Part shown: one piece after another, positions 35,190 to 60,398 of the stretch
Layout of the letters: each line of letters opens with the position of its first letter
Numbering within the stretch: the stretch's first letter is position 1
DNA from: a virus
DNA: 64,000 nucleotides
Strand: one strand, 5' to 3'
IMG/VR virus record: IMGVR_UViG_3300030419_007436
Coordinates: 1-64,000 of that record
Notes under the pieces: generated by a model
The model's input: the letters and a program-made list of their open reading frames with translations, nothing else
Told to the model about the DNA's origin: nothing
The model's database searches: none
Made by a program: the position numbers and the translations under genes

Positions 35190-35432
35190 TTAAGTCTGCT
35201 GTGATTGTTCTACTTTAATTTCTTCGCGATCAAAATTTTGTTGCAATTTTTCCTCAAATTCATCATTAAATTTTAAAATGGGGGGATTCATAACAACTAG
35301 CCCCTCTTCTGATAATTTAAATTTAAATCCCTTTAATACAGGGACAATATCGCTCTGCTCCATCAAACTTTTTTGTAAAGCCATCATAACAGAGCCGAGG
35401 GCTTGGTCTGAAAAATTAAATTCTTTACTCAT
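35190..35432 (-). CDS. Hypothetical protein, 80 aa
   Basis: ORF track; tightly packed in the operon. Confidence 0.7.
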   Translation of the reverse strand: MSKEFNFSDQALGSVMMALQKSLMEQSDIVPVLKGFKFKLSEEGLVVMNPPILKFNDEFEEKLQQNFDREEIKVEQSQQT

Positions 35433-36318
35433 TTTTTTCTCCTTGTAGGCTAAACTTTTTACTTAGCCAATCTGAAATATAATTTTGTAATTTAACGTTA
35501 GGGCTCCACCCTAATAATTTTTGTGTTTTAGATATATCTGCTAGTGTTATCCATGCTTCTCCGGGGCGTGCGTCGATATGCTCCACGTCTTCCTTATACA
35601 TTGCTGCCAACTCATTAATAGAGTGGTTTGTACCCGTTCCTAAGTTAAAAATCTCACCTTTCCATGTGTCTTTTGACATAGCAATTAAGGCCGAACAAAT
35701 ATCTTTAACGTTGGTAAAGTCCCTTCGTTGCTCTCCAGTGCCCGTTATTGTTAAAGGCTGGTCAAACAACATTTGTTTCTCAAAGATGCCAATAACCGTG
35801 GCGTATGGGCCTGAGCGCAGGTGTCGAGGGCCATAAACATTAAAAAATCGTGCAATTGTAGTGCTCACACCATAAACTTCTGAGTAAAGTTTACATATTT
35901 CTTCTCCTTGCCACTTGGAAAAGGCATAAGGATTTAAATATACTCCACCATAAAATGAACTGGAACCGGCGTAAACTACTTTTACATTATTTTTTCTGGC
36001 GTATTCACATACCAAAGAAGTGCCTTTGGTATTAACATCTAAAGTTTCGCTCGGTCTATCAAAACTTGGTTGAATTCTGGCTAGGGCGGCCAAATGAAAT
36101 ACAACATCAATATCTTTAAGCATTTCGAAAGAGTCTGCAATCTCAAAGACGTGTCGCAAATCTTGAAAAATATATTTTGCCTTTTCATTACAGTTTTCCA
36201 TTTTTCCTGTATCTAGGTTGTCGATAACAACGACGTTATTTTCTGGATCTTCAACAAGTATATCAACCAAATTACTCCCTATAAACCCACAACCTCCTGT
36301 AACTAAAATATTTGTCAT
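35425..36318 (-). CDS. NAD-dependent nucleotide-sugar epimerase/dehydratase (extended SDR), 297 aa
   Basis: ILVTGGCGFIGS, YxxxK (YAFSK), RFFNVYGP. Confidence 0.9.
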   Translation of the reverse strand: MTNILVTGGCGFIGSNLVDILVEDPENNVVVIDNLDTGKMENCNEKAKYIFQDLRHVFEIADSFEMLKDIDVVFHLAALARIQPSFDRPSETLDVNTKGTSLVCEYARKNNVKVVYAGSSSFYGGVYLNPYAFSKWQGEEICKLYSEVYGVSTTIARFFNVYGPRHLRSGPYATVIGIFEKQMLFDQPLTITGTGEQRRDFTNVKDICSALIAMSKDTWKGEIFNLGTGTNHSINELAAMYKEDVEHIDARPGEAWITLADISKTQKLLGWSPNVKLQNYISDWLSKKFSLQGEKNE

Positions 36319-36329
36319 TTTCTATTTCC

Positions 36330-37142
36330 TTATATTCTTATCCAACTTTCTGGTATTAAATCCGCTGTTTCTTTTTTATTAGAAGACACTCTTTTTGGGC
36401 CAAACCAACACCATGGCGAAACCACCTTTTTGTCTTTGTTTTTGTTTAAGTAAGCTGCCCACCATGAAAAAGTAGAATTAGCTATTATATTGTTTTTTAT
36501 TTTTGACATCAAGTACATATCAACCACATCTAATTCTCCCTCAATATAAATTTTTTCAGTTGAGCCAAGAAAATCTGTGTTATTTTTTACCCAATTAATA
36601 TCATCACTGAACAATACTAGAGTATCATATTCCCCAATCTTATTTAACGCATTAAGATAGTAGCTTTCTTCCAATTGGCAATACAAATTTTCAAATTTTA
36701 GGTAATCCTTTCTTCTAAAGTGAAGTGCTACTGCATTCTTTTTATATAAATATTCATATTTTTTATCTATTGAATCTGTATAGAAATCTGGTAAGGAAAA
36801 CATGTCTTGTATATGTTCTTCATAATCGTGAAAGTATTTATACGATTGAAAGTATCCATATATACATAAATCCTCTTTATATTCAATCTTATTGTATATT
36901 GTACTGGTGTATGATTTTTCGGTATATCTATTTTTCACAAACTTTTTATCAAATGCGCTTTTATTTAATTTGTGAAATATACTGTTCCCATAAAAATCGT
37001 AAGGATGAAAATTTAAATCAGGAAATACTGCTTTATCGTTGTTTTCTTTTGCCAACCCTAGAGCAGTTGCTATACAAAACATCTGATTTCCCAATCCATT
37101 ATTAGAGGTAGGACAATAACCTAAGACATCACACGTAATCAA
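36330..37142 (-). CDS. GT11 alpha-1,2-fucosyltransferase-like, 270 aa
   Basis: GLGNQMF, YGYFQSYKYF, VALHFRRKDY, FSDDINW, IIANSTFSWWAAYL. Confidence 0.9.
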   Translation of the reverse strand: MITCDVLGYCPTSNNGLGNQMFCIATALGLAKENNDKAVFPDLNFHPYDFYGNSIFHKLNKSAFDKKFVKNRYTEKSYTSTIYNKIEYKEDLCIYGYFQSYKYFHDYEEHIQDMFSLPDFYTDSIDKKYEYLYKKNAVALHFRRKDYLKFENLYCQLEESYYLNALNKIGEYDTLVLFSDDINWVKNNTDFLGSTEKIYIEGELDVVDMYLMSKIKNNIIANSTFSWWAAYLNKNKDKKVVSPWCWFGPKRVSSNKKETADLIPESWIRI

Positions 37143-37143
37143 A

Positions 37144-38067
37144 TTATATCCCCCTTATATTGGGATAGTTTTTTTCAAACCACCCACACACATTGGACAG
37201 ACTTTCATAAAAGTCTGTGTATTTTTCCTGCTTCCACCCAAGAGAAATTAACTTTGAATTATCGGACGGTTTTCTATATTGTCCTTTTGGCATATCTGTT
37301 TGCCAAACTATTTCTCCATTGTAATCCAATATTTCTGCAATCATGTTGGCTACATTTTTTATAGAATACTCTTTCGTGTTTCCGACATTGATTGGAGTTT
37401 CATCGTTATATTTATCAAGTAAAAATAAAATAATTTTTGATAAATCTTTTGAATATGTGAATTCTCTTAGAGGAGATCCATCTCCCCATAAATATACAGA
37501 ATTATTACTCTTTTTTGCTTCATATATTTTTCTAATTATAGCTGGTAGAACGTGACTATCTTCTAAATCAAAATTATCATTTTCACCAAATAGATTGTTT
37601 GGTACGATAGTTACAAAATTACAATCATATTGTCTTCTATATGCTCTAGATTGAATGTCCGCCATTCTCTTAACGTGTGCATACGCAAAATTTGACTGAT
37701 GTGGTTCTCCATTATGAATGTCTTTTTCTACAAGAGGATAGCTTACAACATCAGGATAAACACATGTACTTAAAACTGATAAAACCTTTTTTACATTATA
37801 TTCTTTCGCGTAATGCAAAACATTTGTGCTAATCATTGTATTTTCATAATAAAAGTCGGCTAACTTGTCCATATTAGCTTTTATCCCTCCGACCTTAGCA
37901 GCTAAATGAATAACACAATCTGGTTTATGATCTTTGTACATTTGCTCACACTGCTCACTTTTAATCAAGTTGTAGTCTTGTGAAGAAATATAAACCGCAC
38001 TCTCCAAATCTTGTTTAAGTGCGGTACCGATCATTCCAGAACCTCCTGTAACTAAAATTTTACTCAT
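37144..38067 (-). CDS. fcl: GDP-L-fucose synthase
   Basis: ILVTGGSGMIG, VIHLAAKVGGI.AN, LSTCVYP, SNFAYAHVKR, LFGENDNFDLEDSHVLPAII, LWGDGSPLREFTY. Confidence 0.9.
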   Translation of the reverse strand: MSKILVTGGSGMIGTALKQDLESAVYISSQDYNLIKSEQCEQMYKDHKPDCVIHLAAKVGGIKANMDKLADFYYENTMISTNVLHYAKEYNVKKVLSVLSTCVYPDVVSYPLVEKDIHNGEPHQSNFAYAHVKRMADIQSRAYRRQYDCNFVTIVPNNLFGENDNFDLEDSHVLPAIIRKIYEAKKSNNSVYLWGDGSPLREFTYSKDLSKIILFLLDKYNDETPINVGNTKEYSIKNVANMIAEILDYNGEIVWQTDMPKGQYRKPSDNSKLISLGWKQEKYTDFYESLSNVCGWFEKNYPNIRGI

Positions 38068-39032
38068 TCTATTGTTGTCATCCAGTGATTAATCATATCG
38101 TCCATCAACGTTTCAAATGTATATTCGGGGGCCCACCCAAGAACCTCTCTTGCTTTTGTTGAATCTCCCTTAAGATATTTCAACTCTTCGGGTCTCATAT
38201 ATTTTGGATTTTGTACAACATAATCCTTATAGTCTAGGCCCAGCTGTCCGAAAACATATTCACATAGATTTCTAACTGAGTGTGTTTCGCCGGTTGCAAC
38301 TATAAATTCATCAGGAGTGTGATGGTTAATAATCATGTGCATGGCCCTTACATAATCCTTTGAATGTCCCCAGTCTCGAAAAGAGTCTAAATTACCAAGC
38401 TCTAGTTTATCTCTATAACCCTTCTTAATTTCTACTGCGGTTTTAACGACCTTATTTGTGACAAAGTTAGAGCCGCGGCGAGGGGATTCGTGATTAAATA
38501 AAATCCCATTACAGGCATGTAAATTATAGGCATTTCGGTAGTGTTTAACTAGATTGTATGCTAAAAGTTTAGCGCAGCCGTAAGGACTCACAGGGTTCAT
38601 GGGAGTTGTCAGTCTTTGGCTTCCATCTTCATCAACAGAATTTCCAAACATTTCAGAAGAACTAGCCTGATAGAATTTTGCTTTTGGTACAATCGATTTG
38701 TATACTTCTAAGAGATTGAGTACTCCCATCGCGTTTGTTTGAATAGTATAAGACGGTACATCAAAACTAATTCTTACATGACTCATCGCAGCCAAATTAT
38801 ATATCTCATCTGGCTTTACCTCATTTACAACGCGAGTTAAGGAGGGGACATCCATCATATCAGCATAAAAAGTGTTAATTTTATCATTAACGTGTTTAAG
38901 TCTGCTGTCTTGATTTTCAGCAACAGAACTTCTTCTAATAAGTCCATGAACTTCATATCCCTTGTTCAAAAGGTATTCAGATAAGTAACTCCCGTCTTGT
39001 CCTGAAACACCTGTAATTAACGCTCTTTTCAT
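38064..39032 (-). CDS. gmd: GDP-mannose 4,6-dehydratase
   Basis: ALITGVSGQDGSYL, IYNLAAMSHV.ISF, FYQASSSEMFG, PVSPYGCAK, GILFNHESPRRG.NFVT.K, LGNLD..RDWGH.KDYV.AM. Confidence 0.96.
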   Translation of the reverse strand: MKRALITGVSGQDGSYLSEYLLNKGYEVHGLIRRSSVAENQDSRLKHVNDKINTFYADMMDVPSLTRVVNEVKPDEIYNLAAMSHVRISFDVPSYTIQTNAMGVLNLLEVYKSIVPKAKFYQASSSEMFGNSVDEDGSQRLTTPMNPVSPYGCAKLLAYNLVKHYRNAYNLHACNGILFNHESPRRGSNFVTNKVVKTAVEIKKGYRDKLELGNLDSFRDWGHSKDYVRAMHMIINHHTPDEFIVATGETHSVRNLCEYVFGQLGLDYKDYVVQNPKYMRPEELKYLKGDSTKAREVLGWAPEYTFETLMDDMINHWMTTIE

Positions 39033-39619
39033 TTAAAAATCCTCATATTTGTTAAATCTGGCCAATCTGAAATTGTCCATTGTTTTGGTTTGTTGTTGAT
39101 CGCCTCTGGCAATCTTTCTAGCCCCAAGGCTGCAGTTTCTGGTGTCATATAATAATGGTATCCCATTGAAGATATATTTTGCTCTCTCCATGGAATATTT
39201 GGCAACCTTCCGTCATATGACATTTTTTTTAATTCTTCTTGTGCTGTTTTATTGTCTGTTAAAATCATTCCGCCGCGGCCAAGACTTAAATGCTTCCTGT
39301 ATTGAAAACTCAAACACATAAACGTCTTAGGAATATAGCTGTCTTTTTTCCATAGGACCGCGGCATCTATAATATTTGTATTTCCTAAATAATAATAATC
39401 ATTCCAATTCTCCTCTCTCCATTCAAAATCAATATCTATTTTTCTTGCCAAAAAAGGAACAGATATGTATGTATGTTTTGGTATTGTTATTTTTGTTGGC
39501 TTTTCATATCTTAAACAAAGCTCCAATGCATGTGTACAACAATCAACTGCAATTCCGTGGGGCGCGCCGAAAAACTTAGCCACTTGTTGTTCAAATTTTT
39601 CTACAAGATCAAAACTCAT
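39029..39619 (-). CDS. Short DegT/DnrJ/EryC1/StrS-family PLP aminotransferase-like protein, 196 aa
   Basis: FEQQVAKFFGAPHGIAVDCCTHALEL, IIDAA, LSFQYRKHLSLGRGGMILTD, GYHYYMT..AALG; about half the usual family length. Confidence 0.8.
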   Translation of the reverse strand: MSFDLVEKFEQQVAKFFGAPHGIAVDCCTHALELCLRYEKPTKITIPKHTYISVPFLARKIDIDFEWREENWNDYYYLGNTNIIDAAVLWKKDSYIPKTFMCLSFQYRKHLSLGRGGMILTDNKTAQEELKKMSYDGRLPNIPWREQNISSMGYHYYMTPETAALGLERLPEAINNKPKQWTISDWPDLTNMRIFK

Positions 39620-40155
39620 TTTGTTGCCTCAACGTTTAAACTTATAAGAGTACCACTTTCTTTATCCATGTGAGGCTTGTATGCTTGAGAATGATCATCA
39701 AAAGATGCATGCTCTGTTTCTTTCCAATCATAGGTCTCAACATTAAGAAAGCCGCACTGCTCTAACAAATCAGATAAACTATTAAAATCATAAGTTGTTT
39801 TATGGTATATGGTTTTATCACCCATTTCCATTTTTCCATATAAAGGCCCCAAAAATTCTTCCAAACTATAAGCTTTATAACAATAGAGATTGACCATCGA
39901 TTCAAAGTCTGGTACTGCAACTCTCAATATTCCATTCGGCTTGAGTACACGATACCACTCTTTTAAGACAAGCTCCGCTTCTTTTCTGTCAAAATATTCT
40001 AAAACATGAGACGCATATATTAAATCAACAGTATTATTATCGAAATTTAGTCTCGTGATATCATAGTCATTTAAATGATCATAATCGCCGCCATCGATGT
40101 GCACCCAATCTTTTCCAAAATTTCTCCAACCGCAACCTAAATGTAATTTTATCAT
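39616..40155 (-). CDS. Class I SAM-dependent methyltransferase, 179 aa
   Basis: KLHLGCG, VDLIYASHVLEY, EWYRVLKPNGILRVAVPD. Confidence 0.88.
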   Translation of the reverse strand: MIKLHLGCGWRNFGKDWVHIDGGDYDHLNDYDITRLNFDNNTVDLIYASHVLEYFDRKEAELVLKEWYRVLKPNGILRVAVPDFESMVNLYCYKAYSLEEFLGPLYGKMEMGDKTIYHKTTYDFNSLSDLLEQCGFLNVETYDWKETEHASFDDHSQAYKPHMDKESGTLISLNVEATK

Positions 40156-40559
40156 ATAAATTCTTTATCCTGTTCAATGCCTAAGTACGGCCCAGTTTTG
40201 TATTCATATACCAAAGTGTCATCTTCCAATATTTCATACGTGTGGCCACCATATAAGGTAATACTACAATCTCCAGCATCTAAAATTTCTTCAGAAACAA
40301 CTTTGTCATCCAAATCATATAAAATAGCCTTTACTTTTCCGCTTATTACCGCCCACGATTCTTGGGCTATTGTAGTTGTTTTTTCACAAAAAACATGTTT
40401 GTGGGGCTTAAATGTCTTTCCCTTCGGTAAGCGCATCGCGGCTAACTGAATAAATTCTTTATCCTCAACAACATTAAGCCTTTCAGTTTGAACGCTGTCT
40501 TTTTTTAAAATTATATGTAATAACGTCTCTGGTTCAACTTTAGAATAAATTTTTTTCAT
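40152..40559 (-). CDS. Cupin-fold protein (WbuC-like / sugar isomerase), 135 aa
   Basis: FKPHKH...QESWAVISG...GGHTY...EYKTGPY cupin motifs. Confidence 0.75.
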   Translation of the reverse strand: MKKIYSKVEPETLLHIILKKDSVQTERLNVVEDKEFIQLAAMRLPKGKTFKPHKHVFCEKTTTIAQESWAVISGKVKAILYDLDDKVVSEEILDAGDCSITLYGGHTYEILEDDTLVYEYKTGPYLGIEQDKEFI

Positions 40560-40583
40560 GATAATGATTATACTGTAATACTG

Positions 40584-40952
40584 TCAATAATTTAAAGAAT
40601 TATCTATAAAATCTAGCACGTAGTCCCAAGAGCTTTTTTTACCTCTTTCAAATCTAATTGCTTTGTCATCAATATAACATTTAGCAGGCAATTTTGTATT
40701 TGATATCTCGTCAAAATAGTGAAGCATGTCTTGTTCTACAAGCCATTTTTTAATTGGTTCGGGGGGTCGACAAGAAACAATAACAAGCCGATATCCATTG
40801 CTCTTTAGCTTTTCTAATGCCTCTCTCGTGCCCTCTGTTGGCTTATCATAGACATTTTGTTGTCCCTTAAACCCCTTAGAATATCGATGGATAACACCAT
40901 CAAAATCTATAGCAATTGTTTTGTCTTTAACTTTTACGTCAATTTCTTTCAT
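40584..40952 (-). CDS. Small HAD-superfamily phosphatase, 122 aa
   Basis: IAIDFDGVI (DxD motif I), IVSCR, YIDDKA (motif IV). Confidence 0.85.
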   Translation of the reverse strand: MKEIDVKVKDKTIAIDFDGVIHRYSKGFKGQQNVYDKPTEGTREALEKLKSNGYRLVIVSCRPPEPIKKWLVEQDMLHYFDEISNTKLPAKCYIDDKAIRFERGKKSSWDYVLDFIDNSLNY

Positions 40953-41680: not shown

Positions 41681-41683
41681 AAT

Positions 41684-45292: not shown

Positions 45293-45294
45293 AT

Positions 45295-50043: not shown

Positions 50044-50880
50044 TTACACTAGCTCTACAAATTTCTGTTTATATCCTTCAAAATAGGCGCGCTCTAATTC
50101 TGAAAAAACCAGAGACATAATTATTTTAGTGTCCGCCCATATTTCATCTTTATATGGATCTCTATGTAGGTGTACATCAATTACACTGCTGCTTATACAT
50201 TGCATAAATGTCTCTTTCCAAGCACCTCTATCAATTCTTCCGTTTCTCATTCCATATTGGTTTCCGCCGCGCTCAAACATTTGACAATTGTTTGGATAAT
50301 ATTTACTTTCGAAAACTCTTTTAGTTAATATATATTCATCTAAATTCCAACCTTGATCCCAGGTCGATTCCTTAGATAGCATTTTAGAAAGACAATCAGA
50401 CAGGTTTTCTCTCAATGATTTATCACTTATCCCAATCACCTCTTTCCAGATCTTTGCTTTCATTCCTATGTTTCCAATTTTTAAACGTGTATAGTTTGTT
50501 TCATCCGGATCAAATATGTGAATGTCTTTTGAAAAATCTTGCTGATTGAACCATTTGTCTGATATAACAAATTTATCCATATCGTCTGTTATAAGATAAT
50601 CATCATCATTAAATAAAGGATCTGCAGCTGCAAATAACCTTGAGATTTGGGCAACATTACAAGTTCTATATCCCTCAATATGTTTAAAATGATTTATGTG
50701 GGCGCCCACTTTTTCGGCGCTAGTTAAAATCAAATTTAAAATATCGGGAGATATATCGTTGTTATCAACCAAAACAACATAAGGGTGATAGCCCAGCTTT
50801 TTCCAAAAAGCACATGTAATTGGAACAAAAAACAAATAATCTGTATTTGAGTCTACGGATAAGACTGAATATTTTTTCAT
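50044..50880 (-). CDS. Hypothetical protein (possible glycosyltransferase), ~278 aa
   Basis: ORF track gives 50044..50898. The start is more likely the ATG at 50880 (MKKYSVLS), an ATGA overlap. It has AQISRLF and YLITDDMDKF (DxD-like); assignment from context only. Confidence 0.55.
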   Translation of the reverse strand: MKKYSVLSVDSNTDYLFFVPITCAFWKKLGYHPYVVLVDNNDISPDILNLILTSAEKVGAHINHFKHIEGYRTCNVAQISRLFAAADPLFNDDDYLITDDMDKFVISDKWFNQQDFSKDIHIFDPDETNYTRLKIGNIGMKAKIWKEVIGISDKSLRENLSDCLSKMLSKESTWDQGWNLDEYILTKRVFESKYYPNNCQMFERGGNQYGMRNGRIDRGAWKETFMQCISSSVIDVHLHRDPYKDEIWADTKIIMSLVFSELERAYFEGYKQKFVELV

Positions 50881-52418
50881 TTTAACCTCTCTACGCAAAG
50901 TCTTCTTTTTTTGGAATTTTTACACTCGCCAGTTTTTAAATTAAACTTCCAATTATGAAGTGGACAAACCAAGTTATCATTCTCATCAACAAACCCTGTT
51001 GTTTCTAGGTCTGCGAGCATATGAGGACAATATTTCTGAACCTTATATTTATCACCTTTGTGTTCTAAAATAAAATTTTCTTCTGTTGATACTCTTTGGT
51101 TATAAAGACTTTCAGATATTCTTAATCTTGTGTTGTCCATATTTCTTAGTAGAGCAAACAAAATATCATCATATTCATCTGGTCTTCTATATGCTTTAAA
51201 CTTCAAGCTTAAAAAATAATAGTCAAAATCAATAAATTTATTTCCCAATATATGTGCCAATAGGGCACCATCAAAAGAGAAGTGATATCGACAATCTTCA
51301 TTTTCATATTTTTTAAAACACCTTTCCTCATCTTCAGAAAAATTTACAACCCATTTATTTCCATCTATTTCAAATAAAATAGGATAATTTAATTTATTTT
51401 TATATATTTTAGAATTTTTTACAACTTGAATCGTTCTATATCTTAGTAAATCTTCAGCACCGTAGCCAGATTTGATTTCTACGGTTGCAACTCCCTTTTT
51501 CAACTCAAGTCTTTTTTCTTTAACATATTTGTTTATATATTCATCAACATTTTGATATATTTTGTGGCTTTCTTCCGTGTCACATAAAAATTCAATCTGT
51601 TTCTTATCTAATTTAATTATATCATTTGGTATAACCAAATGAGCGTTATGGCCACTATCTTTTATATATTGTACACCTTCATCCATTAAAGGAAAAGGAT
51701 TATGTTTCTTTGCCCTTTCATGATTCCATCTAGATTCTTCTACCCCTGAAAATATTGGGGGCCCTGCGCACGGTATAATATTTTTTGCTTTTGTCCACTT
51801 GGCATAGTTTACCGACCTTTTTAGTACGCCTTCTCTTTTTTTCTCGCATACAGAATTCATCTTTTCTTCTTCATAATTATAAACACATGGCCACCATAGC
51901 GCACTGGAACACTGAAGCATAAGTACATCAATTTGTTTCATTTCTTTAAACTTTTCTGGTTTTAGATGGCAGTCATTTAAGTTCAATATCGTGCTGTGTT
52001 CGTCTTCAACGTATATACAAGAATCCTTGTCTAAATAATCTTCTTCTTTGAATATTTTAATTTTTAAGTTTTTCTTAAAATATGTGTCATCTTCCTCCAT
52101 TTCAAGAATATTTGTAAATCCCATACTTTTTAGTTCGTATTTTAAAGAAAAGTCTTTAAATTTGGGAATACAGACTTGCACATCTTTGTTTATCTTTTGT
52201 AGTGTCCATGGGTCATAATGATCTGCGTGAGAGTGAGAAATATATAGAACGTCTACATCTTTAGTTATTTCTTTAATATCTACATTATCTATCCTGGGAA
52301 ACTGAAGCCAACTAGAAAAAAATGTACCGTCTGGGTTTAACCAGGGATCACATAAAATTTTTATACCATTGTTTTTAATAGACCACCCAGCGTGTCCTAA
52401 GTATTGTATTTCAAACAT
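50877..52418 (-). CDS. MBL-fold protein with a C-terminal Rieske [2Fe-2S] domain (CMP-Neu5Ac hydroxylase-like), 513 aa
   Basis: YLGHAG, ILCDPWL...FFSSW..FP, LYISHSHADH, ILNLNDC, PCAGPP; C-terminal Rieske CPH-x(17)-CPLHNWKF. Confidence 0.8.
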   Translation of the reverse strand: MFEIQYLGHAGWSIKNNGIKILCDPWLNPDGTFFSSWLQFPRIDNVDIKEITKDVDVLYISHSHADHYDPWTLQKINKDVQVCIPKFKDFSLKYELKSMGFTNILEMEEDDTYFKKNLKIKIFKEEDYLDKDSCIYVEDEHSTILNLNDCHLKPEKFKEMKQIDVLMLQCSSALWWPCVYNYEEEKMNSVCEKKREGVLKRSVNYAKWTKAKNIIPCAGPPIFSGVEESRWNHERAKKHNPFPLMDEGVQYIKDSGHNAHLVIPNDIIKLDKKQIEFLCDTEESHKIYQNVDEYINKYVKEKRLELKKGVATVEIKSGYGAEDLLRYRTIQVVKNSKIYKNKLNYPILFEIDGNKWVVNFSEDEERCFKKYENEDCRYHFSFDGALLAHILGNKFIDFDYYFLSLKFKAYRRPDEYDDILFALLRNMDNTRLRISESLYNQRVSTEENFILEHKGDKYKVQKYCPHMLADLETTGFVDENDNLVCPLHNWKFNLKTGECKNSKKRRLCVERLK

Positions 52419-53232
52419 CTAATTTTTGCCTTACAGTATCGCTAACAAATCTACAATCTCCAAATTTTGACATTCTAGAAAATAAAACAATTTTATTTGG
52501 ATCTAAAGTATAAGATGGATCAAAAGATACTAATGTCTGCTGATCTCCGTATTTATTAAGTATATCACTTTCATAGTCCTGTTGTAAATTATATTTTTCT
52601 ATCAGTAACGATAAAATAGACTGATCCTGACGATGTTCTATACATAGTGATTCTGGTCCGTCAGGTTTTTTAACAGTTGTATCGGGGCCTATTATTTCTA
52701 AATTTAATGAACAATTATACATTTCATTAATAAATTGAGAGTTTGTATGATTTGATTCATAACATTGATACCCGGCCCAATATTGGGGGGCGTCGCGATA
52801 TCTTTCACTATCACACCCCATTTGTGTAAAACAAGCTTCAGTGGTCCAATATTTATTTTTTAATTGTTCTGGATGATATTTTAAAAACAAGCAGCCACTC
52901 TTTTTAACGTCTTTTTTAAGCTCAACTGTCATATTAACAAATGCATTTGTAGCATCAGAGTAAATGAAGTCATGGCCAAATTTCGAAGCGCCATGGATTG
53001 CGGCGACTTTATAGAAAAACATTCTAGGAGAGTGAGCATAATCGCAGACTCTTTCCACTTCTTTTAATATTATTTGAGATCCATATCTGTTTTGTAAAAA
53101 ATCTAAATAAACCTCATCTAAATCAAAATAATAGAATAAAATTTCTTTGTTAAAAGAGTTGTGTTTGTAGCTTTCAATTAAATTAATGGAAGAAAGAAAA
53201 AACTTATTATTTGTTACAGTAGAGAGTATCAT
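52411..53232 (-). CDS. DUF1647-like putative glycosyltransferase, 273 aa
   Basis: FYYFDL, FFYKV..I, IYSDA, CIEHRQDQSILSLL (compare the HRxDQS motif). Confidence 0.6.
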   Translation of the reverse strand: MILSTVTNNKFFLSSINLIESYKHNSFNKEILFYYFDLDEVYLDFLQNRYGSQIILKEVERVCDYAHSPRMFFYKVAAIHGASKFGHDFIYSDATNAFVNMTVELKKDVKKSGCLFLKYHPEQLKNKYWTTEACFTQMGCDSERYRDAPQYWAGYQCYESNHTNSQFINEMYNCSLNLEIIGPDTTVKKPDGPESLCIEHRQDQSILSLLIEKYNLQQDYESDILNKYGDQQTLVSFDPSYTLDPNKIVLFSRMSKFGDCRFVSDTVRQKLDV

Positions 53233-55202
53233 GCATCTTTATATTTCTCGTATACTTCTTCTTCTTCTTTTCTTTTCCAAGAGAAATTTTCAGGATTTGT
53301 TGAAATTCCTGTAGGATTAAAATAATATAATCCAAGAGGATTAGAATTAATTTTCTTATACGTAGACCCTTTTGAAGCCGCTCTCAACCACATTTCCCAA
53401 TCCCCTGCAGATTTGTATTTTTGATCAAACAATCCAGCCTCTTTATGTAAAGATTTTCTCCACATTGGAGAAGAGTGAGGCATGTTAATCATCTTGAGAT
53501 TATCAAAAGAGAATTCTGGAAAATTATACCTTCTTTCATTTGAGGAATTTTGTTCCCATGTTTCATTTGGTTTGTCAGTTATTAACATATCCGCATAAAC
53601 TAAATCAATGTCTGAATTTTTATATAGTTCTTTTGCATGTGCCTCCAAAGACCAAGGAGCCTTTCTATCATCTAAGTTTGCATTTGTTAGATATTCTCCA
53701 CTTGACATTTCAACACCCATATTCCAAACACTATAAATGCCCGGATCAGAATCAAGTTTCTTATAAACTATATTATCAGGATATTTTTCTAAATACTCGT
53801 TGATTACTTCTTCTTCATTGTGAGGAGAGTTAGCATTAATCAAAATTAATTCACATTTATCCTTAAAGATAGTTTGTCTAGTAATGTCTTCTAGGAATGA
53901 CTTAATAAATTCATCCCCTTTATAAACAGATGTTATGATAGAGACTTTTGGTAGTTCATTAGAAGACACGGAAACCAATTTTTCTCCGGCAATCAATTCA
54001 GCCATTTTTGCATACTGATCTTCTTCTTTAAAATTTTCAACTACAAATTTTTTAAGATCTTTTGCCTGCTTTTTAAACCGACCATATTCCTTATACATTT
54101 CTCTAAGGCGCATTTTATATGAACCTTGTTGTGGATAACACCACATAGAATTTTTTTCTAATACCCCTTCCCAAACGCTACTTTCTGGAATCGGTTTAAT
54201 ATCATAATCTATTCGAGAGAAATGCGGGCGCATTTTTACTTTGCCGCTCTTTTTCTCTTTTTTTGGAGCAAAAAGAAAATCAACATGACCACTCCATTCT
54301 GGCGCCATCACAGGAAGGCCGGAATAAGCAGCTTCAAATATCGGCAGACCGAAACCTTCGCCATGAGCTAAAGAAACAAGTGCTTTAATTTGTGGATGTT
54401 TATATAGAGAGTGCATTTGTTGATCTGACATATCGCCATGAAGAAGATATATCTTACACTTTCTATTTTCATACTTGGATATAAACTTTGTTAATTTATC
54501 TACTGCATCATATCTATCACTTATTGAGTTTCCAGTTGCAAATGTTTTAACCACCAAGCCAACATCAGGGTTGTCAATAAATTCTTCCATAAACCAACTA
54601 ATCGTGTTTTCCAAATTTTTTCTTGGCCCCCATTGGGCAACAGTAAGAAAATTAAATTTAGAACTCAACTCTAAATCCAAATCAACTTCTTCATATTCCT
54701 TAACTGGGTAATGTACAACAGATATTTCTTTGTTGCACGAAAGTGTCATTTTTTGACCAGTTTCTTTATCAACCCCTTGATATGAAGACGCTTGATATAC
54801 ATTTTTTGAATGGCTCGATACAGTAATTACCCTATCCATCATATTCGCTTTTTCTAACCAAACTGGGGCAACTCTATTCGTTTCAATACCAGCCGTAATT
54901 CCAACATTAACCGGCGCCATTTTTTGCCATTCATTGGGAATTGTTACTTGTATGCTCATATCAAACCGAACATCTCCTTTAGTTTCAGTTTGATAATTAG
55001 CTGTTTTTTTGACCAAGGTGTCAAACCATTGTCGTTCTTCATCATCTGCAGATATCCATCCACATTGTCCCCAATTAACTGGTAAAACATAAAGGTCAAA
55101 GATGTCTTCATGTTTTCTCAGTGATCGGAGTACAAAACGTCCATGTTCACCATATCCAGAGCGCGTCAAAAAAGGTGCTCTTACTATTACTTTCTTTTTC
55201 AC
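53229..55202 (-). CDS. GT4-GT2 fusion glycosyltransferase, ~657 aa
   Basis: N-terminal GT-B: SGYGEH.R, WGPRKN, HGEGFGLPIFEAAYSGLPVMA..WSGH. C-terminal GT-A: VSIITSVYKG, GEYLTNANLDDR, GDWEMWLR. The likely start is the GTG at 55202 (GTGA overlap, SD AAGGAG); the track gives 55223. Confidence 0.88.
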   Translation of the reverse strand: MKKKVIVRAPFLTRSGYGEHGRFVLRSLRKHEDIFDLYVLPVNWGQCGWISADDEERQWFDTLVKKTANYQTETKGDVRFDMSIQVTIPNEWQKMAPVNVGITAGIETNRVAPVWLEKANMMDRVITVSSHSKNVYQASSYQGVDKETGQKMTLSCNKEISVVHYPVKEYEEVDLDLELSSKFNFLTVAQWGPRKNLENTISWFMEEFIDNPDVGLVVKTFATGNSISDRYDAVDKLTKFISKYENRKCKIYLLHGDMSDQQMHSLYKHPQIKALVSLAHGEGFGLPIFEAAYSGLPVMAPEWSGHVDFLFAPKKEKKSGKVKMRPHFSRIDYDIKPIPESSVWEGVLEKNSMWCYPQQGSYKMRLREMYKEYGRFKKQAKDLKKFVVENFKEEDQYAKMAELIAGEKLVSVSSNELPKVSIITSVYKGDEFIKSFLEDITRQTIFKDKCELILINANSPHNEEEVINEYLEKYPDNIVYKKLDSDPGIYSVWNMGVEMSSGEYLTNANLDDRKAPWSLEAHAKELYKNSDIDLVYADMLITDKPNETWEQNSSNERRYNFPEFSFDNLKMINMPHSSPMWRKSLHKEAGLFDQKYKSAGDWEMWLRAASKGSTYKKINSNPLGLYYFNPTGISTNPENFSWKRKEEEEVYEKYKDA

Positions 55203-56470
55203 GATATCTCCTTGATTTCCCAATTCTTATAGCCCTTTCTTTCTCCCCAAGAGCCCATTTCTTCGTAAACCATTGTAAATATTTCATCCCACTGTTTAGA
55301 AAAATCATTAAAATTATAATTTTCTATTACATGCTGGCGCCCTGCGGCGCCAAGCGCTCTTCGATCTTCTTCTTTCATATTATACATTTTTTCGAGCGCG
55401 GCGACGACGACATCTTCAGATAGTCGATCTTCATATATCCATGGAATATCTTGAGAACCAATAATCGCCTTAGATGTTGGTTCTAAACCAATGCCAAACC
55501 AATTTTCCCCATCCGTCACTTGTTCTTGTAAACCACCCGTCATATTTACAATGATTGGTGTTTCACAAGCTAAAGATTCAAGAGTTGCTAAACCAAATCC
55601 TTCAGCATCTGATATGTTGATAGTACAGTCTGCAATATTATACATAACAGCTAATGTTTCTGGGTCAACTTTCTGGCGAGAGAACAGTACTTCTCCGTTT
55701 GTTAAACCAAGCTCAGAAACTATTAATTCCAAATCTTGACCATGTTGATCTTTTGTATCTGTGTGCATTATTAAAACAGCATTTTCTTTACCAACTTTTT
55801 CCAAAAACTTTGCGTACCAATAAATTAAAGTACCACTTTGTTTTCTACGAGCGTTTCTATTGTTCCAAAAAAAGACGAACTTATTGGGGTCATAGTTATC
55901 TCCAAACGACCTTGATGCAAACTCTTTTACACGCTCTTCATCATATCTTTTATAAGAGTCAGTATCAACAGCGTGTGGTAAGTATACAGACTTTACATTT
56001 GGAGAGACTTTTTTAACAATATCATCAGTAACTTTTGATATTGTCACAATTAAATCGTTTGATTCATACCACTTTTTGTTATATGTTGGAAGAGGATAAT
56101 TGTCCCACACATGATAATATACCATCGGAACAAGTGGTCTAATTTCATTTTCTATTCCCCAAAGCCATGGCCAAAACCTAGGATCAGTCATAAACCATAA
56201 AATGTCGGGCCTTTCCTGTCGCACAATAGATCTTATCATATCTGGATTTCCATAACCTTCCACGGGAAGAGTAATCCAATCATCTTTCCATTCTTCTGTT
56301 TTTATCGGATTAAAATCAGGGTGGTGCATTGCGCCGCCTAAACTAAAAAATTTATATTTTCCAGTTTTAAGCATATTCTCTATAATATATCTTGTTTGGT
56401 TGCCAACGCCGGATGGCGCGAATGGCATATCACTAATAGTTAATATTTTAATTTTATTCGTGTCAGACAA
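55199..56470 (-). CDS. GT4 family glycosyltransferase, 423 aa
   Basis: PSGVGNQ, LPHAVD, NNRNARRKQ, SDAEGFGLATLESLACETPII; TTG start with a GAGGG SD. Confidence 0.9.
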   Translation of the reverse strand: MSDTNKIKILTISDMPFAPSGVGNQTRYIIENMLKTGKYKFFSLGGAMHHPDFNPIKTEEWKDDWITLPVEGYGNPDMIRSIVRQERPDILWFMTDPRFWPWLWGIENEIRPLVPMVYYHVWDNYPLPTYNKKWYESNDLIVTISKVTDDIVKKVSPNVKSVYLPHAVDTDSYKRYDEERVKEFASRSFGDNYDPNKFVFFWNNRNARRKQSGTLIYWYAKFLEKVGKENAVLIMHTDTKDQHGQDLELIVSELGLTNGEVLFSRQKVDPETLAVMYNIADCTINISDAEGFGLATLESLACETPIIVNMTGGLQEQVTDGENWFGIGLEPTSKAIIGSQDIPWIYEDRLSEDVVVAALEKMYNMKEEDRRALGAAGRQHVIENYNFNDFSKQWDEIFTMVYEEMGSWGERKGYKNWEIKEIS

Positions 56471-60290: not shown

Positions 60291-60398
60291 ACGTTTTTAT
60301 AAGCTAGCGCTTCATATATAAATAGTTCTTAGCAATTTAATATCAAAAAGAACCGATGTTTTATTTTTAAAAACATAGTTATTATAAGGCGGGCTCAT

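What the first reader, a model, noticed from the sequence alone, without database searches (positions are those of the whole stretch)
35425..56470. A 23-gene phage glycan synthesis and decoration operon feeding into the baseplate operon: candidate virion glycan-armour system
Seen: 23 contiguous same-strand genes, mostly linked by overlaps or gaps of a few nt. They include 5 recognisable GT-family genes (GT4, GT4-GT2, GT2, GT47-like, GT11), a GT10-like gene, 3 GT-like ORFans, GDP-fucose synthesis, and four classes of tailoring enzyme (sulfo-, carbamoyl-, methyl-transferase and Rieske hydroxylase). I saw no Wzx/Wzy/ABC exporter, ligase or chain-length gene, which a cellular surface-polysaccharide locus would need. 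The cluster runs without a strand switch into the sigma gene and the tail/baseplate genes. Established: phage-encoded glycosyltransferases can glycosylate virion proteins (mycobacteriophages) or DNA (T-even phages). Inference: without export machinery the product is made in the cytoplasm on phage substrates, most likely virion proteins, giving an unusually elaborate fucosylated, sulfated and carbamoylated glycan.
Basis: partly seen in the sequence, partly recalled or inferred. Interest (0 to 1): 0.8.

Follow-up and report, generated by a model that had tools for sequence, protein, structure and literature searches.

The report
Phage sugar-coat gene island, target unknown
A complete 190-kb ocean phage devotes 21 kb to 23 soluble enzymes that make and decorate a complex sugar chain with no export machinery. 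Related phages keep two of these enzymes and swap the rest freely, so this is a real member of a known but still unexplained class of marine-phage "LPS" gene clusters, and cultured relatives could show what it glycosylates.

Summary
There are 23 tightly packed minus-strand genes (35425-56470) in a complete T4-type marine phage genome. They encode 8 glycosyltransferase proteins (9 GT domains), GDP-fucose and other sugar-nucleotide enzymes, an APS kinase, and sulfo-, carbamoyl- and methyl-transferases. No exporter, initiating transferase or ligase is present in this genome or in 50 related records.

New here: the first two genes are a phage-only GT4 pair. They are conserved across more than 70 related contigs and, distantly, in cultured Flavobacterium and Microcystis phages. 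Everything after them is a mosaic slot of 0 to about 21 kb.

The cluster does not feed the baseplate operon. The late sigma gene lies between them, and the adjacency is lost in the cultured relatives.

Large exporter-less glycan clusters in marine T4-like phages have been known since 2005-2010 (P-SSM2, S-SSM7, pelagimyophages) and have never been tested. This scan has noted similar islands in at least 10 other genomes.

My estimates for the acceptor:
- Virion glycosylation: about 0.4.
- Host-envelope remodelling: about 0.33.
- DNA glycosylation: unlikely.

Verdict: a new member of a known kind, of moderate interest.

The parts
58980..60290 (-). PhoH-like PIN+PhoH ATPase. It is the first gene of the conserved block phoH-x111-x233-nuc-GT4-GT4. 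A late-type motif CTATTTAT sits 27 nt upstream at 60318, and a perfect sigma70 consensus lies inside the gene at 59204-59176.
   Evidence: Pfam. Motif. Sigma70 scan. Synteny in 77/80 loci.
56480..57253 (-). PD-(D/E)XK nuclease. It is the conserved upstream anchor, directly before the two core GT4 genes.
   Evidence: Pfam PDDEXK_1 E 5e-17. Present in 80/80 nuc-anchored loci. The same order is kept in phages immuto and Mel-JY01.
55199..56470 (-). g23, core GT4 glycosyltransferase no. 1 (423 aa). It is found only in phage context.
   Evidence: Pfam Glycos_transf_1 E 7e-13. Present in 80/80 loci at 54-75% identity. The N-domain is as conserved as the C-domain. Only 11 loci in 185,579 species genomes, all with phage synteny. 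31-33% identity in immuto and Mel-JY01. Best PDB sequence hit is chlorovirus B736L, E 2e-8.
53229..55223 (-). g22, core GT4 no. 2 (residues about 1-400), fused here to a GT2 domain (about 420-640).
   Evidence: Pfam. The GT4 part is in 71/80 loci. It is free-standing at about 420-435 aa in 51/67 ORFs and fused in 14/67. 30-32% identity in immuto and Mel-JY01.
52411..53232 (-). g21, GT8-like GT-A glycosyltransferase (no Pfam hit).
   Evidence: 52 homologue clusters. AF2 pLDDT 96.5. Foldseek top hits are glycogenin, LARGE1, XXYLT1 and WbbM, E about 1e-6. Atlas lists it near DUF1647 clusters.
50877..52418 (-). g20, a three-domain protein: MBL-fold (weakly CmlA-like diiron oxygenase), SCP2-like and Rieske [2Fe-2S]. 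It is a probable self-sufficient oxygenase; the substrate is unknown.
   Evidence: Pfam Lactamase_B_3, SCP2_Rv3818 and Rieske. PDB hits to a diiron monooxygenase and CmlA, E 8e-5 to 5e-3. The Rieske part resembles ferredoxin subunits.
50044..50898 (-). g19, GT8-like GT-A glycosyltransferase from a family that Pfam does not cover, with an invariant D106-x-D108.
   Evidence: 654 homologue clusters. None of 80 members hits Pfam. Invariant DxD. AF2 pLDDT 96.6. Foldseek top hits are GT8, glycogenin, UGGT and LgtC.
49240..50043 (-). g18, RXYLT1_C/GT47-like glycosyltransferase.
   Evidence: Pfam RXYLT1_C E 1.6e-8 (over cut-off) and Exostosin_GT47 E 1e-3.
48486..49247 (-). g17, GT2 glycosyltransferase.
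   Evidence: Pfam Glycos_transf_2 E 4e-10. Own-genome search.
47768..48493 (-). g16, PAPS-dependent sulfotransferase.
   Evidence: Pfam Sulfotransfer_1 E 5e-7 (over cut-off).
46151..47767 (-). g15, NodU/NolO-type O-carbamoyltransferase.
   Evidence: Pfam Carbam_trans_C E 4e-61. NodU-like. Homologues in HTVC008M and many cyanomyophages.
45295..46164 (-). g14, GT10-like (fucosyltransferase-type) protein.
   Evidence: Pfam Glyco_transf_10 E 1.3e-5, 25.4 bits against a cut-off of 23.9.
44480..45292 (-). g13, APH/Bud32-like small-molecule kinase (probable sugar kinase).
   Evidence: Pfam APH E 3e-5. NCBIfam. It lies next to a g12 homologue in L031.
43428..44483 (-). g12, IspD/MobA-like nucleotidyltransferase fused to a HAD phosphatase. 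All matches are weak.
   Evidence: Pfam hits are all below cut-off. NCBIfam.
42421..43431 (-). g11, SDR nucleotide-sugar epimerase/dehydratase.
   Evidence: Pfam Epimerase E 1e-51. NCBIfam gives only generic matches.
41684..42424 (-). g10, unassigned 246-aa protein with 11 homologues in related islands.
   Evidence: Only a weak DUF7796 hit. No NCBIfam hit. Iterative search.
40949..41680 (-). g9, APS kinase with an N-terminal two-helix DUF2061 membrane anchor. It makes PAPS from host APS.
   Evidence: Pfam APS_kinase E 2e-44 and DUF2061. TIGR00455 over cut-off. Two hydrophobic segments. No ATP sulfurylase in the genome.
40584..40952 (-). g8, small HAD-type phosphatase. It travels with the APS kinase in relatives.
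   Evidence: Pfam HAD_2 and Hydrolase. Adjacent g8+g9 homologues in L015, L016 and L045.
40152..40559 (-). g7, WbuC-like cupin (a sugar-nucleotide modifying protein).
   Evidence: NCBIfam TIGR04366 E 2e-9 (below cut-off). 32 unique homologues in related islands.
39616..40155 (-). g6, SAM-dependent methyltransferase.
   Evidence: Pfam Methyltransf_11 E 1e-10.
39029..39619 (-). g5, short (196 aa) DegT/LegC/PseC-type aminotransferase-like protein. This short form recurs and is not a one-off fragment.
   Evidence: Pfam DegT E 9e-18. NCBIfam. At least 12 unique homologues of 195-211 aa. A short copy is also present in immuto.
38064..39032 (-). g4, GDP-mannose 4,6-dehydratase.
   Evidence: Pfam GDP_Man_Dehyd E 9e-116. 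46% identical to the P-SSM2 copy.
37144..38067 (-). g3, GDP-L-fucose synthase.
   Evidence: NCBIfam GDPFucSynFcl E 9e-77. Pfam Epimerase.
36330..37142 (-). g2, GT11 alpha-1,2-fucosyltransferase-type protein.
   Evidence: Pfam Glyco_transf_11 E 2e-23.
35425..36318 (-). g1, SDR nucleotide-sugar epimerase/dehydratase. It is the last gene of the island.
   Evidence: Pfam Epimerase E 8e-48. Homologues sit next to x80 in most relatives.
35190..35432 (-). x80, a conserved 80-aa protein that marks the downstream edge of the variable slot. Its function is unknown.
   Evidence: Present in 74/80 sigma-anchored loci. Conservation pattern. No Pfam or PHROG hit.
33940..34632 (-). gp55-like late sigma factor. 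It separates the island from the structural and baseplate genes.
   Evidence: PHROG 234 late sigma factor E 2e-7. More than 590 relatives.

Best explanation
What is there. The locus is a phage-run, purely cytoplasmic glycosylation system built in two layers. The first layer is a conserved pair of phage-only GT4 glycosyltransferases (g23 and the N-terminal part of g22). They most likely place the first sugars on a conserved acceptor. The second layer is a swappable mosaic island, here 21 genes, which supplies activated precursors and extends and decorates the chain.

Precursor supply in this island:
- GDP-fucose from g4 and g3.
- Other deoxy- or amino-sugars from g1, g11, g7 and g5.
- A kinase plus nucleotidyltransferase route (g13, g12).
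- PAPS from host APS through g9.

Extension and decoration:
- Seven further GT domains (g22 C-terminal part, g21, g19, g18, g17, g14, g2).
- Sulfation (g16), carbamoylation (g15), methylation (g6) and probably oxygenation (g20).

Most likely acceptor. I think it is a phage-made molecule, most likely a virion surface protein. Different members of the clade would then carry different glycan 'serotypes'.

Shown: the gene content, the lack of export machinery, the core-plus-slot architecture and the phage-only distribution of the core GT. Inferred: the order of the enzymatic steps and the identity of the acceptor.
For: (1) Gene families are assigned by Pfam, NCBIfam, AF2 and Foldseek.

(2) No export or initiation machinery:
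- No Wzx, Wzy_C, ABC-2 permease or Bac_transf reaches the family cut-off in 50 related records, 7 of them at least 90% complete.
- Wzx and Bac_transf are also absent from this phage's own genome.
- No ORF has 4 or more hydrophobic segments in 1.19 Mb of island DNA, and at most 3 at a relaxed threshold.

(3) Core-plus-slot layout:
- g23 is in 80/80 and the g22 GT4 part in 71/80 nuc-anchored loci, at identities like those of phoH and nuc.
- The rest varies from nothing (L047) to about 21 kb.
- 1014 island ORFs fall into 320 families.

(4) The acceptor-side N-domain of g23 is as conserved as its donor-side C-domain.

(5) The g23 family occurs only in phage context. All 11 hits in 185,579 species genomes carry the phage synteny.

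(6) The order nuclease-GT4-GT4-variable sugar genes is kept in Flavobacterium phage immuto and Microcystis phage Mel-JY01, whose hosts belong to different phyla.

(7) Proven precedents have the same layout. Megavirinae fibril-glycosylation clusters hold 6-33 genes in a slot between conserved genes, differ by clade and include sulfation enzymes (PMC10117803).

(8) A late-type promoter motif, also found before the tail-tube and other virion genes, is conserved upstream of phoH at the head of this gene run.
Against: - No glycan has been observed on any particle of this clade.
- I found no Ser/Thr-rich or collagen-like acceptor segment in the genome.
- The enzyme families are those typical of bacterial O-antigen and capsule loci.
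- Soluble GTs are also the rule in lipid-linked pathways, so the lack of membrane helices in the GTs does not decide the matter.
- The APS kinase carries a two-helix membrane anchor. This points to chemistry at the inner face of the membrane.
- The genome also encodes a PAP2-family membrane phosphatase, present in 3 of 8 near-complete genomes including this one. That family includes undecaprenyl-pyrophosphate phosphatases.
- Timing is ambiguous. A perfect sigma70 consensus lies inside phoH, and the late sigma gene itself lies downstream in the same run.
- Universal host acceptors such as Und-PP-sugars, lipid II and diacylglycerol could also explain conservation across host phyla.
Confidence: 0.4

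Rival explanations
1. Host-envelope remodelling. The phage enzymes build or extend a lipid-linked glycan (O-antigen, capsule or core) on the host's own undecaprenyl-phosphate intermediates. The host's initiating transferase, flippase or ABC exporter, and ligase then put it on the cell surface. This changes receptors and so blocks superinfection or grazing. It is the reading given in the literature for cyanophage and pelagimyophage clusters.
For: - The enzyme families are typical of O-antigen and capsule loci: GMD, GDP-fucose synthase, GT11, WbuC, DegT, and NeuB in relatives.
- GC content is lower than in the rest of the genome.
- The APS kinase is membrane-anchored.
- A PAP2 membrane phosphatase is present in this genome and in 5 of 18 relatives searched.
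- Hypervariability fits a surface-antigen arms race.
- Published interpretations take this view (PMC7029224, PMC7824862, PMC12801897).
Against: - No initiating transferase, flippase, polymerase, ligase or ABC-2 permease is found in any of 50 records.
- Proven phage seroconversion systems use membrane proteins (established knowledge: GtrABC, Oac, Wzy-beta).
- The two core GTs are phage-only and conserved in phages of Bacteroidota and Cyanobacteria, whose envelope glycans differ.
- L047 carries only the GT4 pair, so the pair works without any phage-made sugar precursor.
- In the papers I read, this has not been shown experimentally for any lytic marine phage.
Confidence: 0.33
2. Glycolipid or small-molecule product. 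The GT4 pair glycosylates diacylglycerol, another lipid or a metabolite, and the island decorates that product. Possible roles are phosphorus-sparing lipid remodelling or a secreted, Nod-factor-like decorated oligosaccharide.
For: - The weak NCBIfam and PDB matches of g23 include monoglucosyl-diacylglycerol synthase, GlcN-PG synthase, BshA, MshA and TreT.
- The decoration set (fucose, sulfate via PAPS, carbamoyl, methyl) mirrors Nod-factor tailoring (NodU-like hit; otherwise established knowledge).
- phoH and a PAP2 phosphatase are in the same genome.
Against: - All those matches lie far below the family cut-offs and are generic GT4 similarity.
- There is no NodC-type chitin synthase and no exporter.
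- Nine GT domains point to an oligosaccharide rather than a monoglycosyl lipid.
- PAP2 is accessory, found in 3 of 8 near-complete genomes.
Confidence: 0.12
3. DNA hypermodification. The GTs glycosylate modified bases in the phage genome to evade restriction, as in T-even phages.
For: - A PD-(D/E)XK nuclease sits directly upstream of the GT4 pair in all three lineages.
- Diverse GT families are reported to glycosylate phage DNA (Pyle et al. 2024, cited in PMC12619734).
Against: - The complete genome has no ThyA-family dCMP/dUMP hydroxymethylase and no TET/JBP dioxygenase.
- Fucosyl-, sulfo- and carbamoyl-transferases and a PAPS supply have no precedent in DNA modification that I know of.
- A content that varies from 0 to 21 kb is hard to reconcile with a replication-coupled base modification.
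Confidence: 0.04
4. No coherent product. The island is a transient collection of horizontally acquired host genes, 'stuffer DNA' for headful packaging, as once suggested for P-SSM2.
For: - Content is mosaic and turns over fast, with 168 singleton families.
- The idea was raised in PMC3037559.
Against: - All 23 frames are intact and tightly coupled.
- Functional modules travel together: GMD+GDP-fucose synthase+GT11, HAD+APS kinase, kinase+nucleotidyltransferase, cupin+methyltransferase+DegT.
- The sampled content is mostly sugar chemistry.
- The slot is anchored by two conserved GTs.
Confidence: 0.03

Closest known systems
'LPS' / cell-wall-modification gene clusters of marine T4-like cyanomyophages (P-SSM2 PSSM2_257-271, S-SSM7, S-SM2, S-SCSM1, S-SCSM2R)
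   Same: - Both lie in a T4-type marine myophage.
- Both are same-strand runs of nucleotide-sugar epimerases/dehydratases, several GT families and a methyltransferase, with no exporter.
- Both are sporadic and variable among relatives.
- In P-SSM2 one cluster lies near phoH.
- Homologues are shared: GMD 46%, GDP-fucose synthase 37%, SDR 39%, GT11-like 31%, GT2 31%, carbamoyltransferase 30%.
   Different: - This phage belongs to another T4-like lineage. Its nearest cultured relatives are Mel-JY01 and immuto at 31-34% identity in gp6.
- Here the variable genes sit in a fixed slot behind a conserved phage-only GT4 pair, which was not found in the P-SSM2 regions compared.
- This island adds a PAPS and sulfation arm and an MBL-SCP2-Rieske protein.
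- The function of the cyanophage clusters is itself untested.
Host recognition cluster (HRC) of pelagimyophages and cyanomyophages (Zaragoza-Solas et al. 2020, PMC7029224)
   Same: It is a hypervariable island in marine T4-like phages that holds many GT and LPS-type genes close to tail-fibre genes, and it recruits metagenomic reads poorly.
   Different: - The HRC lies between VrlC and gp14 and mixes fibre genes with GTs.
- Here the slot lies between a nuclease-GT4-GT4 block and x80-sigma and holds only sugar enzymes.
- The authors favour host O-chain modification, without a test.
Megavirinae fibril-glycosylation clusters and chlorovirus capsid glycosylation
   Same: - The virus encodes both nucleotide-sugar synthesis and the GTs, and uses no membrane export.
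- Clusters of 6-33 genes sit in a slot between conserved genes and differ by clade.
- They include sulfate-modifying enzymes (PMC10117803).
- The best PDB sequence match of g23 is the chlorovirus GT B736L.
   Different: - Those are eukaryotic giant viruses, and virion glycans have been demonstrated chemically.
- Nothing has been demonstrated here.
- Sequence similarity is marginal (E 2e-8 over one domain).
Mycobacteriophage virion glycosylation (Freeman et al. 2023; known to me only through citing papers; the paper itself is not held)
   Same: Phage-encoded soluble GTs glycosylate capsid and tail-tube subunits in the cytoplasm.
   Different: - Those systems have one to a few GT genes, which sit inside the structural module (from my own knowledge).
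- They make no sugar nucleotides and have no large tailoring set.
- There is no homology beyond the GT superfamilies.
Rhizobial Nod-factor decoration toolkit (NoeL/NolK/NodZ, NodPQ/NodH, NodU/NolO, NodS)
   Same: It uses the same combination of chemistries on one oligosaccharide: GDP-fucose synthesis and fucosylation, PAPS supply and sulfation, carbamoylation and methylation. There is a NodU-like hit; the rest is established knowledge.
   Different: - There is no NodC backbone synthase and no NodIJ exporter.
- The fucosyltransferases are GT11 and GT10-like, not the NodZ type.
- The resemblance is one of chemistry only.

Membership tests
Glycan ('LPS') gene clusters of marine T4-like myophages | Lies in a T4-type myophage genome | tested here: met
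   gp55-like sigma, gp25 and a gp6-like wedge protein; tail tube; single contig with a 99-bp end overlap and CheckV 100%.
Glycan ('LPS') gene clusters of marine T4-like myophages | Contiguous run of nucleotide-sugar enzymes plus several glycosyltransferase families | tested here: met
Glycan ('LPS') gene clusters of marine T4-like myophages | Sporadic or variable content among close relatives | tested here: met
   Slot of 0 to about 21 kb; 320 families among 1014 ORFs.
Glycan ('LPS') gene clusters of marine T4-like myophages | Shares homologous genes with the P-SSM2 cluster | tested here: met
   Homologues of five cluster genes (g1, g2, g3, g4 and the GT2 part of g22; g11 hits the same stretch as g1) at 31-46% identity lie in the P-SSM2 cluster region, and the carbamoyltransferase (30%) elsewhere in that genome.
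Virus-encoded virion glycosylation systems (Megavirinae, chlorovirus, mycobacteriophage) | The virus supplies GTs (and often sugar-nucleotide synthesis) and needs no membrane export step | tested here: met
Virus-encoded virion glycosylation systems (Megavirinae, chlorovirus, mycobacteriophage) | Cluster sits in a slot between conserved genes, with content specific to each clade | tested here: met
   compare PMC10117803.
Virus-encoded virion glycosylation systems (Megavirinae, chlorovirus, mycobacteriophage) | Glycan chemically demonstrated on virion proteins | not testable with these tools
   Needs particles. No acceptor-like segment was found by composition.
Virus-encoded virion glycosylation systems (Megavirinae, chlorovirus, mycobacteriophage) | GT genes embedded in or co-transcribed with the structural module (mycobacteriophage type) | tested here: inconclusive
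   There is a late-type motif upstream of phoH. However, sigma lies between the island and the structural genes, a sigma70 consensus lies inside phoH, and the adjacency to the baseplate is lost in immuto and Mel-JY01.
Bacterial O-antigen / capsule loci (Wzx/Wzy- or ABC-dependent) | Initiating phosphoglycosyl transferase | tested here: not met
   PF02397 is absent in the own genome and in 50 relatives. No polytopic WecA-like ORF.
Bacterial O-antigen / capsule loci (Wzx/Wzy- or ABC-dependent) | Flippase plus polymerase, or an ABC-2 exporter; ligase | tested here: not met
   PF01943, PF04932 and PF01061 are below cut-off in all 50 relatives. PF01943 is absent in the own genome.
Temperate-phage seroconversion modules (GtrABC, Oac, Wzy-beta) | Polytopic membrane proteins acting on lipid-linked sugars | tested here: not met
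   No island ORF has more than 3 hydrophobic segments. The only multi-pass proteins in the genome are small accessory ones (a PAP2 phosphatase and a DoxX-like protein) and a few unassigned ones.
Temperate-phage seroconversion modules (GtrABC, Oac, Wzy-beta) | Lysogeny module (integrase, repressor) | not tested
   I did not search for it. T4-type phages are lytic as a rule (established knowledge).
Phage DNA glycosylation (T-even type) | Pathway that makes a hydroxymethyl-pyrimidine acceptor | tested here: not met
   PF00303 and PF12851 are absent in the complete genome.

The most novel reading that the evidence does not exclude
An abundant clade of ocean T4-type phages, with more than 590 related contigs, coats its own particles with strain-specific glycans. 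A conserved phage-only GT4 pair starts the glycan on a virion protein. A freely swapped island, up to about 21 kb and including fucosylation, sulfation, carbamoylation and nonulosonic acids, diversifies it. The result would be viral 'serotypes' comparable to bacterial O-antigens and to the fibril glycans of giant viruses.
Probability: 0.37. Interest if true: 0.8.

Novelty: new member of a known kind. Interest (0 to 1): 0.55.

Why it matters
Large sugar-building gene clusters have been seen in marine T4-like phages for about twenty years. They have been read as host-surface modification or even as stuffer DNA, and as far as I found nobody has tested them.

This case sharpens the question in three ways:
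- The genes fall into a phage-only conserved GT4 pair plus a hypervariable slot.
- No export or initiation gene exists anywhere in the clade.
- The same nuclease-GT4-GT4 module is present in two cultured phages, Flavobacterium phage immuto and Microcystis phage Mel-JY01.

That makes the acceptor question directly testable at the bench.

If the glycan is on the virion, abundant ocean phages would have variable sugar coats. That would affect adsorption, stickiness to marine gels, grazing and the carbon they carry. If it is on the host, it would be the first documented case of a lytic phage rewriting envelope glycans with soluble enzymes alone.

Tried and rejected
- Megablast of the whole cluster against 50,697 phage records gave no match.
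- The T4 late promoter TATAAATA is not enriched on the coding strand: 6 of 29 hits. The motif that is actually placed before virion genes is CTATTTAT(A).
- Generic sigma70 and terminator scans are close to shuffle expectation and do not settle the timing.
- A search for Ser/Thr-rich or collagen-like acceptor segments found nothing convincing.
- I considered x80, the conserved small protein at the slot edge, as a carrier or acceptor. It is conserved but gives no supporting feature.
- NCBIfam naming of the core GT4 pair gives only generic matches far below cut-off, so nothing can be said about the acceptor.
- Pfam on 80 members of the g19 family gave no hit. The fold had to be predicted instead.
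- I considered that g5, g6 and g8 are gene fragments. The short DegT form recurs in at least 12 distinct sequences, so it is not a one-off pseudogene.
- Chimerism with a cellular locus is rejected, because the same phage flanks are seen in more than 200 contigs.
- The 11 'bacterial/archaeal MAG' hits to g23 are phage contigs binned by mistake.
- The Freeman et al. paper on mycobacteriophage glycosylation is not held.

Full report
**Setting.** The window is the first 64 kb of a single 190,629-bp contig. Its ends overlap by 99 bases, and the tool reports CheckV completeness of 100%. It is a T4-type myophage:
- a gp55-like late sigma factor at 33940-34632;
- gp25 at 20728-21126;
- a gp6-like wedge protein at 18922-20712;
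- PhoH at 58980-60290.

By gp6, the nearest cultured relatives are Microcystis phage Mel-JY01 (34% identity) and Flavobacterium phage immuto (31%). More than 590 IMG/VR stretches encode a sigma protein related to this one; the best 80 are 58-81% identical. The phage therefore belongs to a large uncultured marine clade.

**The observation.** Exactly 23 minus-strand ORFs fill 35425-56470. All 22 junctions are 24 nt or less, and 15 are overlaps. The table lists them in transcription order (evidence).

| Gene | Assignment |
|---|---|
| g23 | GT4 |
| g22 | GT4 fused to GT2 |
| g21 | no family hit |
| g20 | MBL-fold + SCP2 + Rieske |
| g19 | no family hit |
| g18 | RXYLT1_C/GT47-like |
| g17 | GT2 |
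| g16 | sulfotransferase |
| g15 | NodU-like carbamoyltransferase |
| g14 | GT10-like |
| g13 | APH/Bud32-like kinase |
| g12 | nucleotidyltransferase-HAD (weak) |
| g11 | SDR |
| g10 | unassigned |
| g9 | DUF2061-anchored APS kinase |
| g8 | HAD |
| g7 | WbuC-like cupin |
| g6 | methyltransferase |
| g5 | short DegT-type protein |
| g4 | GDP-mannose dehydratase |
| g3 | GDP-fucose synthase |
| g2 | GT11 |
| g1 | SDR |

*The two unassigned ORFs.*
- g21 has 52 homologue clusters. Its AF2 model has pLDDT 96.5, and the best Foldseek matches are glycogenin, LARGE1, XXYLT1 and WbbM.
- g19 has 654 homologue clusters, none with a Pfam hit, and an invariant D-x-D. Its model has pLDDT 96.6 and matches GT8 enzymes.
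- Both are therefore GT8-like GT-A transferases.

The cluster encodes 8 GT proteins with 9 GT domains.

*The 'Rieske hydroxylase'.* It is really a Rieske ferredoxin-type domain fused to an MBL-fold domain. That domain weakly resembles CmlA-type diiron oxygenases.

**No export or initiation machinery.**
- This phage's own genome has no Wzx and no Bac_transf.
- No ORF in it has more than 4 strong hydrophobic segments.
- The only multi-pass proteins are a PAP2 phosphatase at 107626-108315, a DoxX-like protein of 144 aa, and three other small proteins of 108-132 aa (DUF5658, a DUF1360-like one and one with no family hit). None is a transporter.
- In 1.19 Mb of island DNA from 160 related loci, no ORF on either strand has 4 or more such segments. 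At a relaxed threshold the maximum is 3.
- HMM searches of 50 related records, 7 of them at least 90% complete, gave nothing above cut-off for Bac_transf, Wzx, Wzy_C or ABC-2 permease.

**Architecture across relatives.** This is the main new result. I compared the window's proteins with 160 loci anchored either on sigma or on the PD-(D/E)XK nuclease.
- *Conserved upstream block.* phoH-x111-x233-nuc-g23-g22 is conserved. g23 is in 80/80 nuc-anchored loci at 54-75% identity, and the g22 GT4 part is in 71/80. These identities match those of phoH and nuc.
- *Conserved downstream block.* On the other side, x80-xZn-xHol-sigma-x102 is conserved.
- *Variable slot.* Between the two blocks lies a slot that is empty in L047 and holds about 21 kb in some contigs (and coordinates).
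- *Form of the second core GT.* In most relatives it is a free-standing GT4 of about 420-435 aa (51 of 67 ORFs). The fusion to GT2 seen here is the minority form (14 of 67).
- *Slot gene pool.* It is very diverse: 1014 ORFs of 150 aa or more fall into 320 families, 168 of them singletons.
- *Slot content.* A random sample of 149 ORFs hits 85 Pfam families, and the commonest are sugar chemistry: SDR enzymes, DegT aminotransferases, methyltransferases, radical SAM/B12 enzymes, NeuB, UDP-glucose dehydrogenase, GT1, GT2, GT11, nucleotidyltransferases and PfkB kinases.
- *Modules that travel together.* These include GMD+GDP-fucose synthase+GT11, HAD+APS kinase, kinase+nucleotidyltransferase, cupin+methyltransferase+short DegT, and g17-g18-g19-g21.

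**The core GT4 pair is phage-only and old.**
- A pattern scan of 185,579 species genomes with an alignment of 29 g23 orthologues found 11 loci. All are MAG contigs that carry the phage synteny phoH-x111-x233-nuc-g23, most of them also g22. They are phage DNA binned by mistake.
- The N-terminal (acceptor-side) half of g23 is as conserved as the C-terminal half.
- Immuto and Mel-JY01 keep the order nuclease-GT-GT4, followed by their own sets of GT2, aminotransferase, methyltransferase, epimerase and further GTs.
- In those two phages g23 and the g22 GT4 part are 30-33% identical to the window's proteins, about the same as gp6.
- Their hosts belong to Bacteroidota and Cyanobacteria.

**Position and timing.** The claim that the cluster runs into the baseplate operon is not supported.
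- The late sigma gene and three small conserved genes lie between the island and the structural genes.
- In immuto and Mel-JY01 the homologous module is nowhere near the baseplate.
- The T4 late consensus is not used here.
- A different motif, CTATTTAT(A), lies 3-77 nt before 14 genes. Three of the ten tested are the tail tube, a head-tail adaptor-like protein and a virion structural protein.
- In the related loci that motif is four times commoner on the coding strand (164 against 43).
- It, or a one-base variant, precedes phoH in many relatives. In 11 of 83 loci it precedes x102, just after sigma. It is about eight-fold depleted inside islands: 14 copies in 1.19 Mb against 150 in 1.53 Mb.
- In this genome a perfect TTGACA-17-TATAAT lies inside phoH at 59204-59176.
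- The island is therefore probably read from promoters upstream of it, possibly of both classes. Its timing stays open.

**Alternatives tested.**
- *DNA glycosylation* is unlikely. There is no ThyA-family hydroxymethylase and no TET/JBP.
- *Chimerism* is excluded by the recurrent phage flanks.
- *Acceptor in the genome.* No mucin-like or collagen-like acceptor segment was found.
- *Membrane or lipid chemistry.* Two observations point this way, and I count them for the host-envelope and glycolipid rivals:
  - the APS kinase has a two-helix anchor;
  - an accessory PAP2 phosphatase is present in 3 of 8 near-complete genomes, including this one and the one with the empty slot.
- *PAPS supply.* There is no ATP sulfurylase, so PAPS synthesis depends on host APS.

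**Comparison with what is known.**
- Large exporter-less 'LPS' clusters were described in P-SSM2, S-SSM7 and S-SM2. They lie near hli03 and/or phoH, and their function is unknown, 'stuffer DNA' included (PMC3037559).
- P-SSM2 genes 257-271 are a 15-gene run of epimerases, GTs, a methyltransferase and an oxygenase. They share five gene families with this cluster at 31-46% identity.
- Iyer et al. read such clusters as host-surface diversification against superinfection (PMC7824862).
- Zaragoza-Solas et al. read the GT-rich host recognition cluster of pelagimyophages the same way (PMC7029224).
- S-SCSM2R has 22 such genes with 13 GTs (PMC12801897).
- The closest proven mechanism with the same layout is Megavirinae fibril glycosylation: 6-33 genes in a slot between conserved genes, specific to each clade, with sulfation enzymes (PMC10117803).
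- Earlier notes of this scan describe 'fixed GTs plus a variable tailoring island' next to tail genes in at least 10 other phage genomes. I did not check those.

**Verdict.**
- The cluster is real, intact and coherent.
- It is a new member of the known class of glycan islands in marine T4-like phages.
- The added value is the phage-only GT4 anchor, the fixed slot, the clade-wide lack of export genes and the link to cultured phages.
- I favour glycosylation of a phage-made acceptor (0.4) over host-envelope remodelling (0.33). Only chemistry on particles and infected cells can decide.

Noticed in passing
G000:C1 (whole genome); for example window 60318, and 149583, 152171, 158188, 164513, 172955, 177169: A motif CTATTTAT(A), often preceded by AA, lies 3-77 nt upstream of 14 genes, including the tail tube and other virion genes. 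In 2.7 Mb of related loci it is four times commoner on the coding strand. It is probably this clade's late promoter and differs from T4's TATAAATA.
   Followed up: partly
window 59176-59204 (minus strand): A perfect 12/12 sigma70 consensus (TTGACA, 17 nt, TATAAT) lies inside the phoH coding region. It points towards the downstream genes and the glycan island.
   Followed up: no
G000:C1:107626-108315 (minus strand; locus L171): A 229-aa multi-pass PAP2-superfamily phosphatase (E 3e-15) sits in the early region. It is present in 6 of the 19 large records searched, this genome among them (3 of the 8 that are at least 90% complete). The family includes undecaprenyl-pyrophosphate and lipid phosphatases, so this may be a sign of host membrane or lipid manipulation.
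   Followed up: partly
window 50044-50898 and proteins P0053-P0202: The g19 family has 654 clusters at E<=1e-3. No Pfam model covers it, it has an invariant DxD and a GT8-like fold, and in many members it forms the C-terminal half of proteins of 500-745 aa. It looks like an undescribed GT-A family.
   Followed up: partly
window 39029-39619; island ORFs in L022, L032, L037, L063 and others; immuto locus L172:15113-15757: A short (195-215 aa) DegT/LegC-like protein that lacks both ends of a normal aminotransferase recurs in many related phages. It is a conserved short form of unknown activity.
   Followed up: partly
window 40584-41680; L015, L016 and L045: An APS kinase with an N-terminal DUF2061 two-helix anchor travels together with a small HAD phosphatase. 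The HAD protein could remove the PAP by-product of sulfotransfer. This is inference only.
   Followed up: no
L178-L188 (GTDB genome contigs): Eleven contigs filed under MAGs of Pelagibacter, Maricaulis, Woesearchaeota, Flavobacteriales, WOR-3, Neomarinimicrobiota and others carry the phage block phoH-x111-x233-nuc-GT4. They are phage DNA binned into cellular genomes, including one stretch inside a 2.85-Mb 'chromosome'.
   Followed up: partly
window 29456-33646: The 1396-aa protein just downstream of sigma and x102 is itself hypervariable. Only 20 of 80 sigma-anchored loci have a detectable homologue, at 24-39% identity. It may be a receptor-binding or fibre protein.
   Followed up: no
related islands, for example members of alignment A2: Some relatives carry NeuB (nonulosonic-acid synthase), UDP-glucose dehydrogenase and radical SAM/B12-binding enzymes in the same slot. 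The clade's glycan chemistry therefore ranges well beyond what this window shows.
   Followed up: partly
window 7327-17394 and 21209-28426: Two giant ORFs of 3355 and 2405 aa flank the baseplate genes. I did not analyse them.
   Followed up: no
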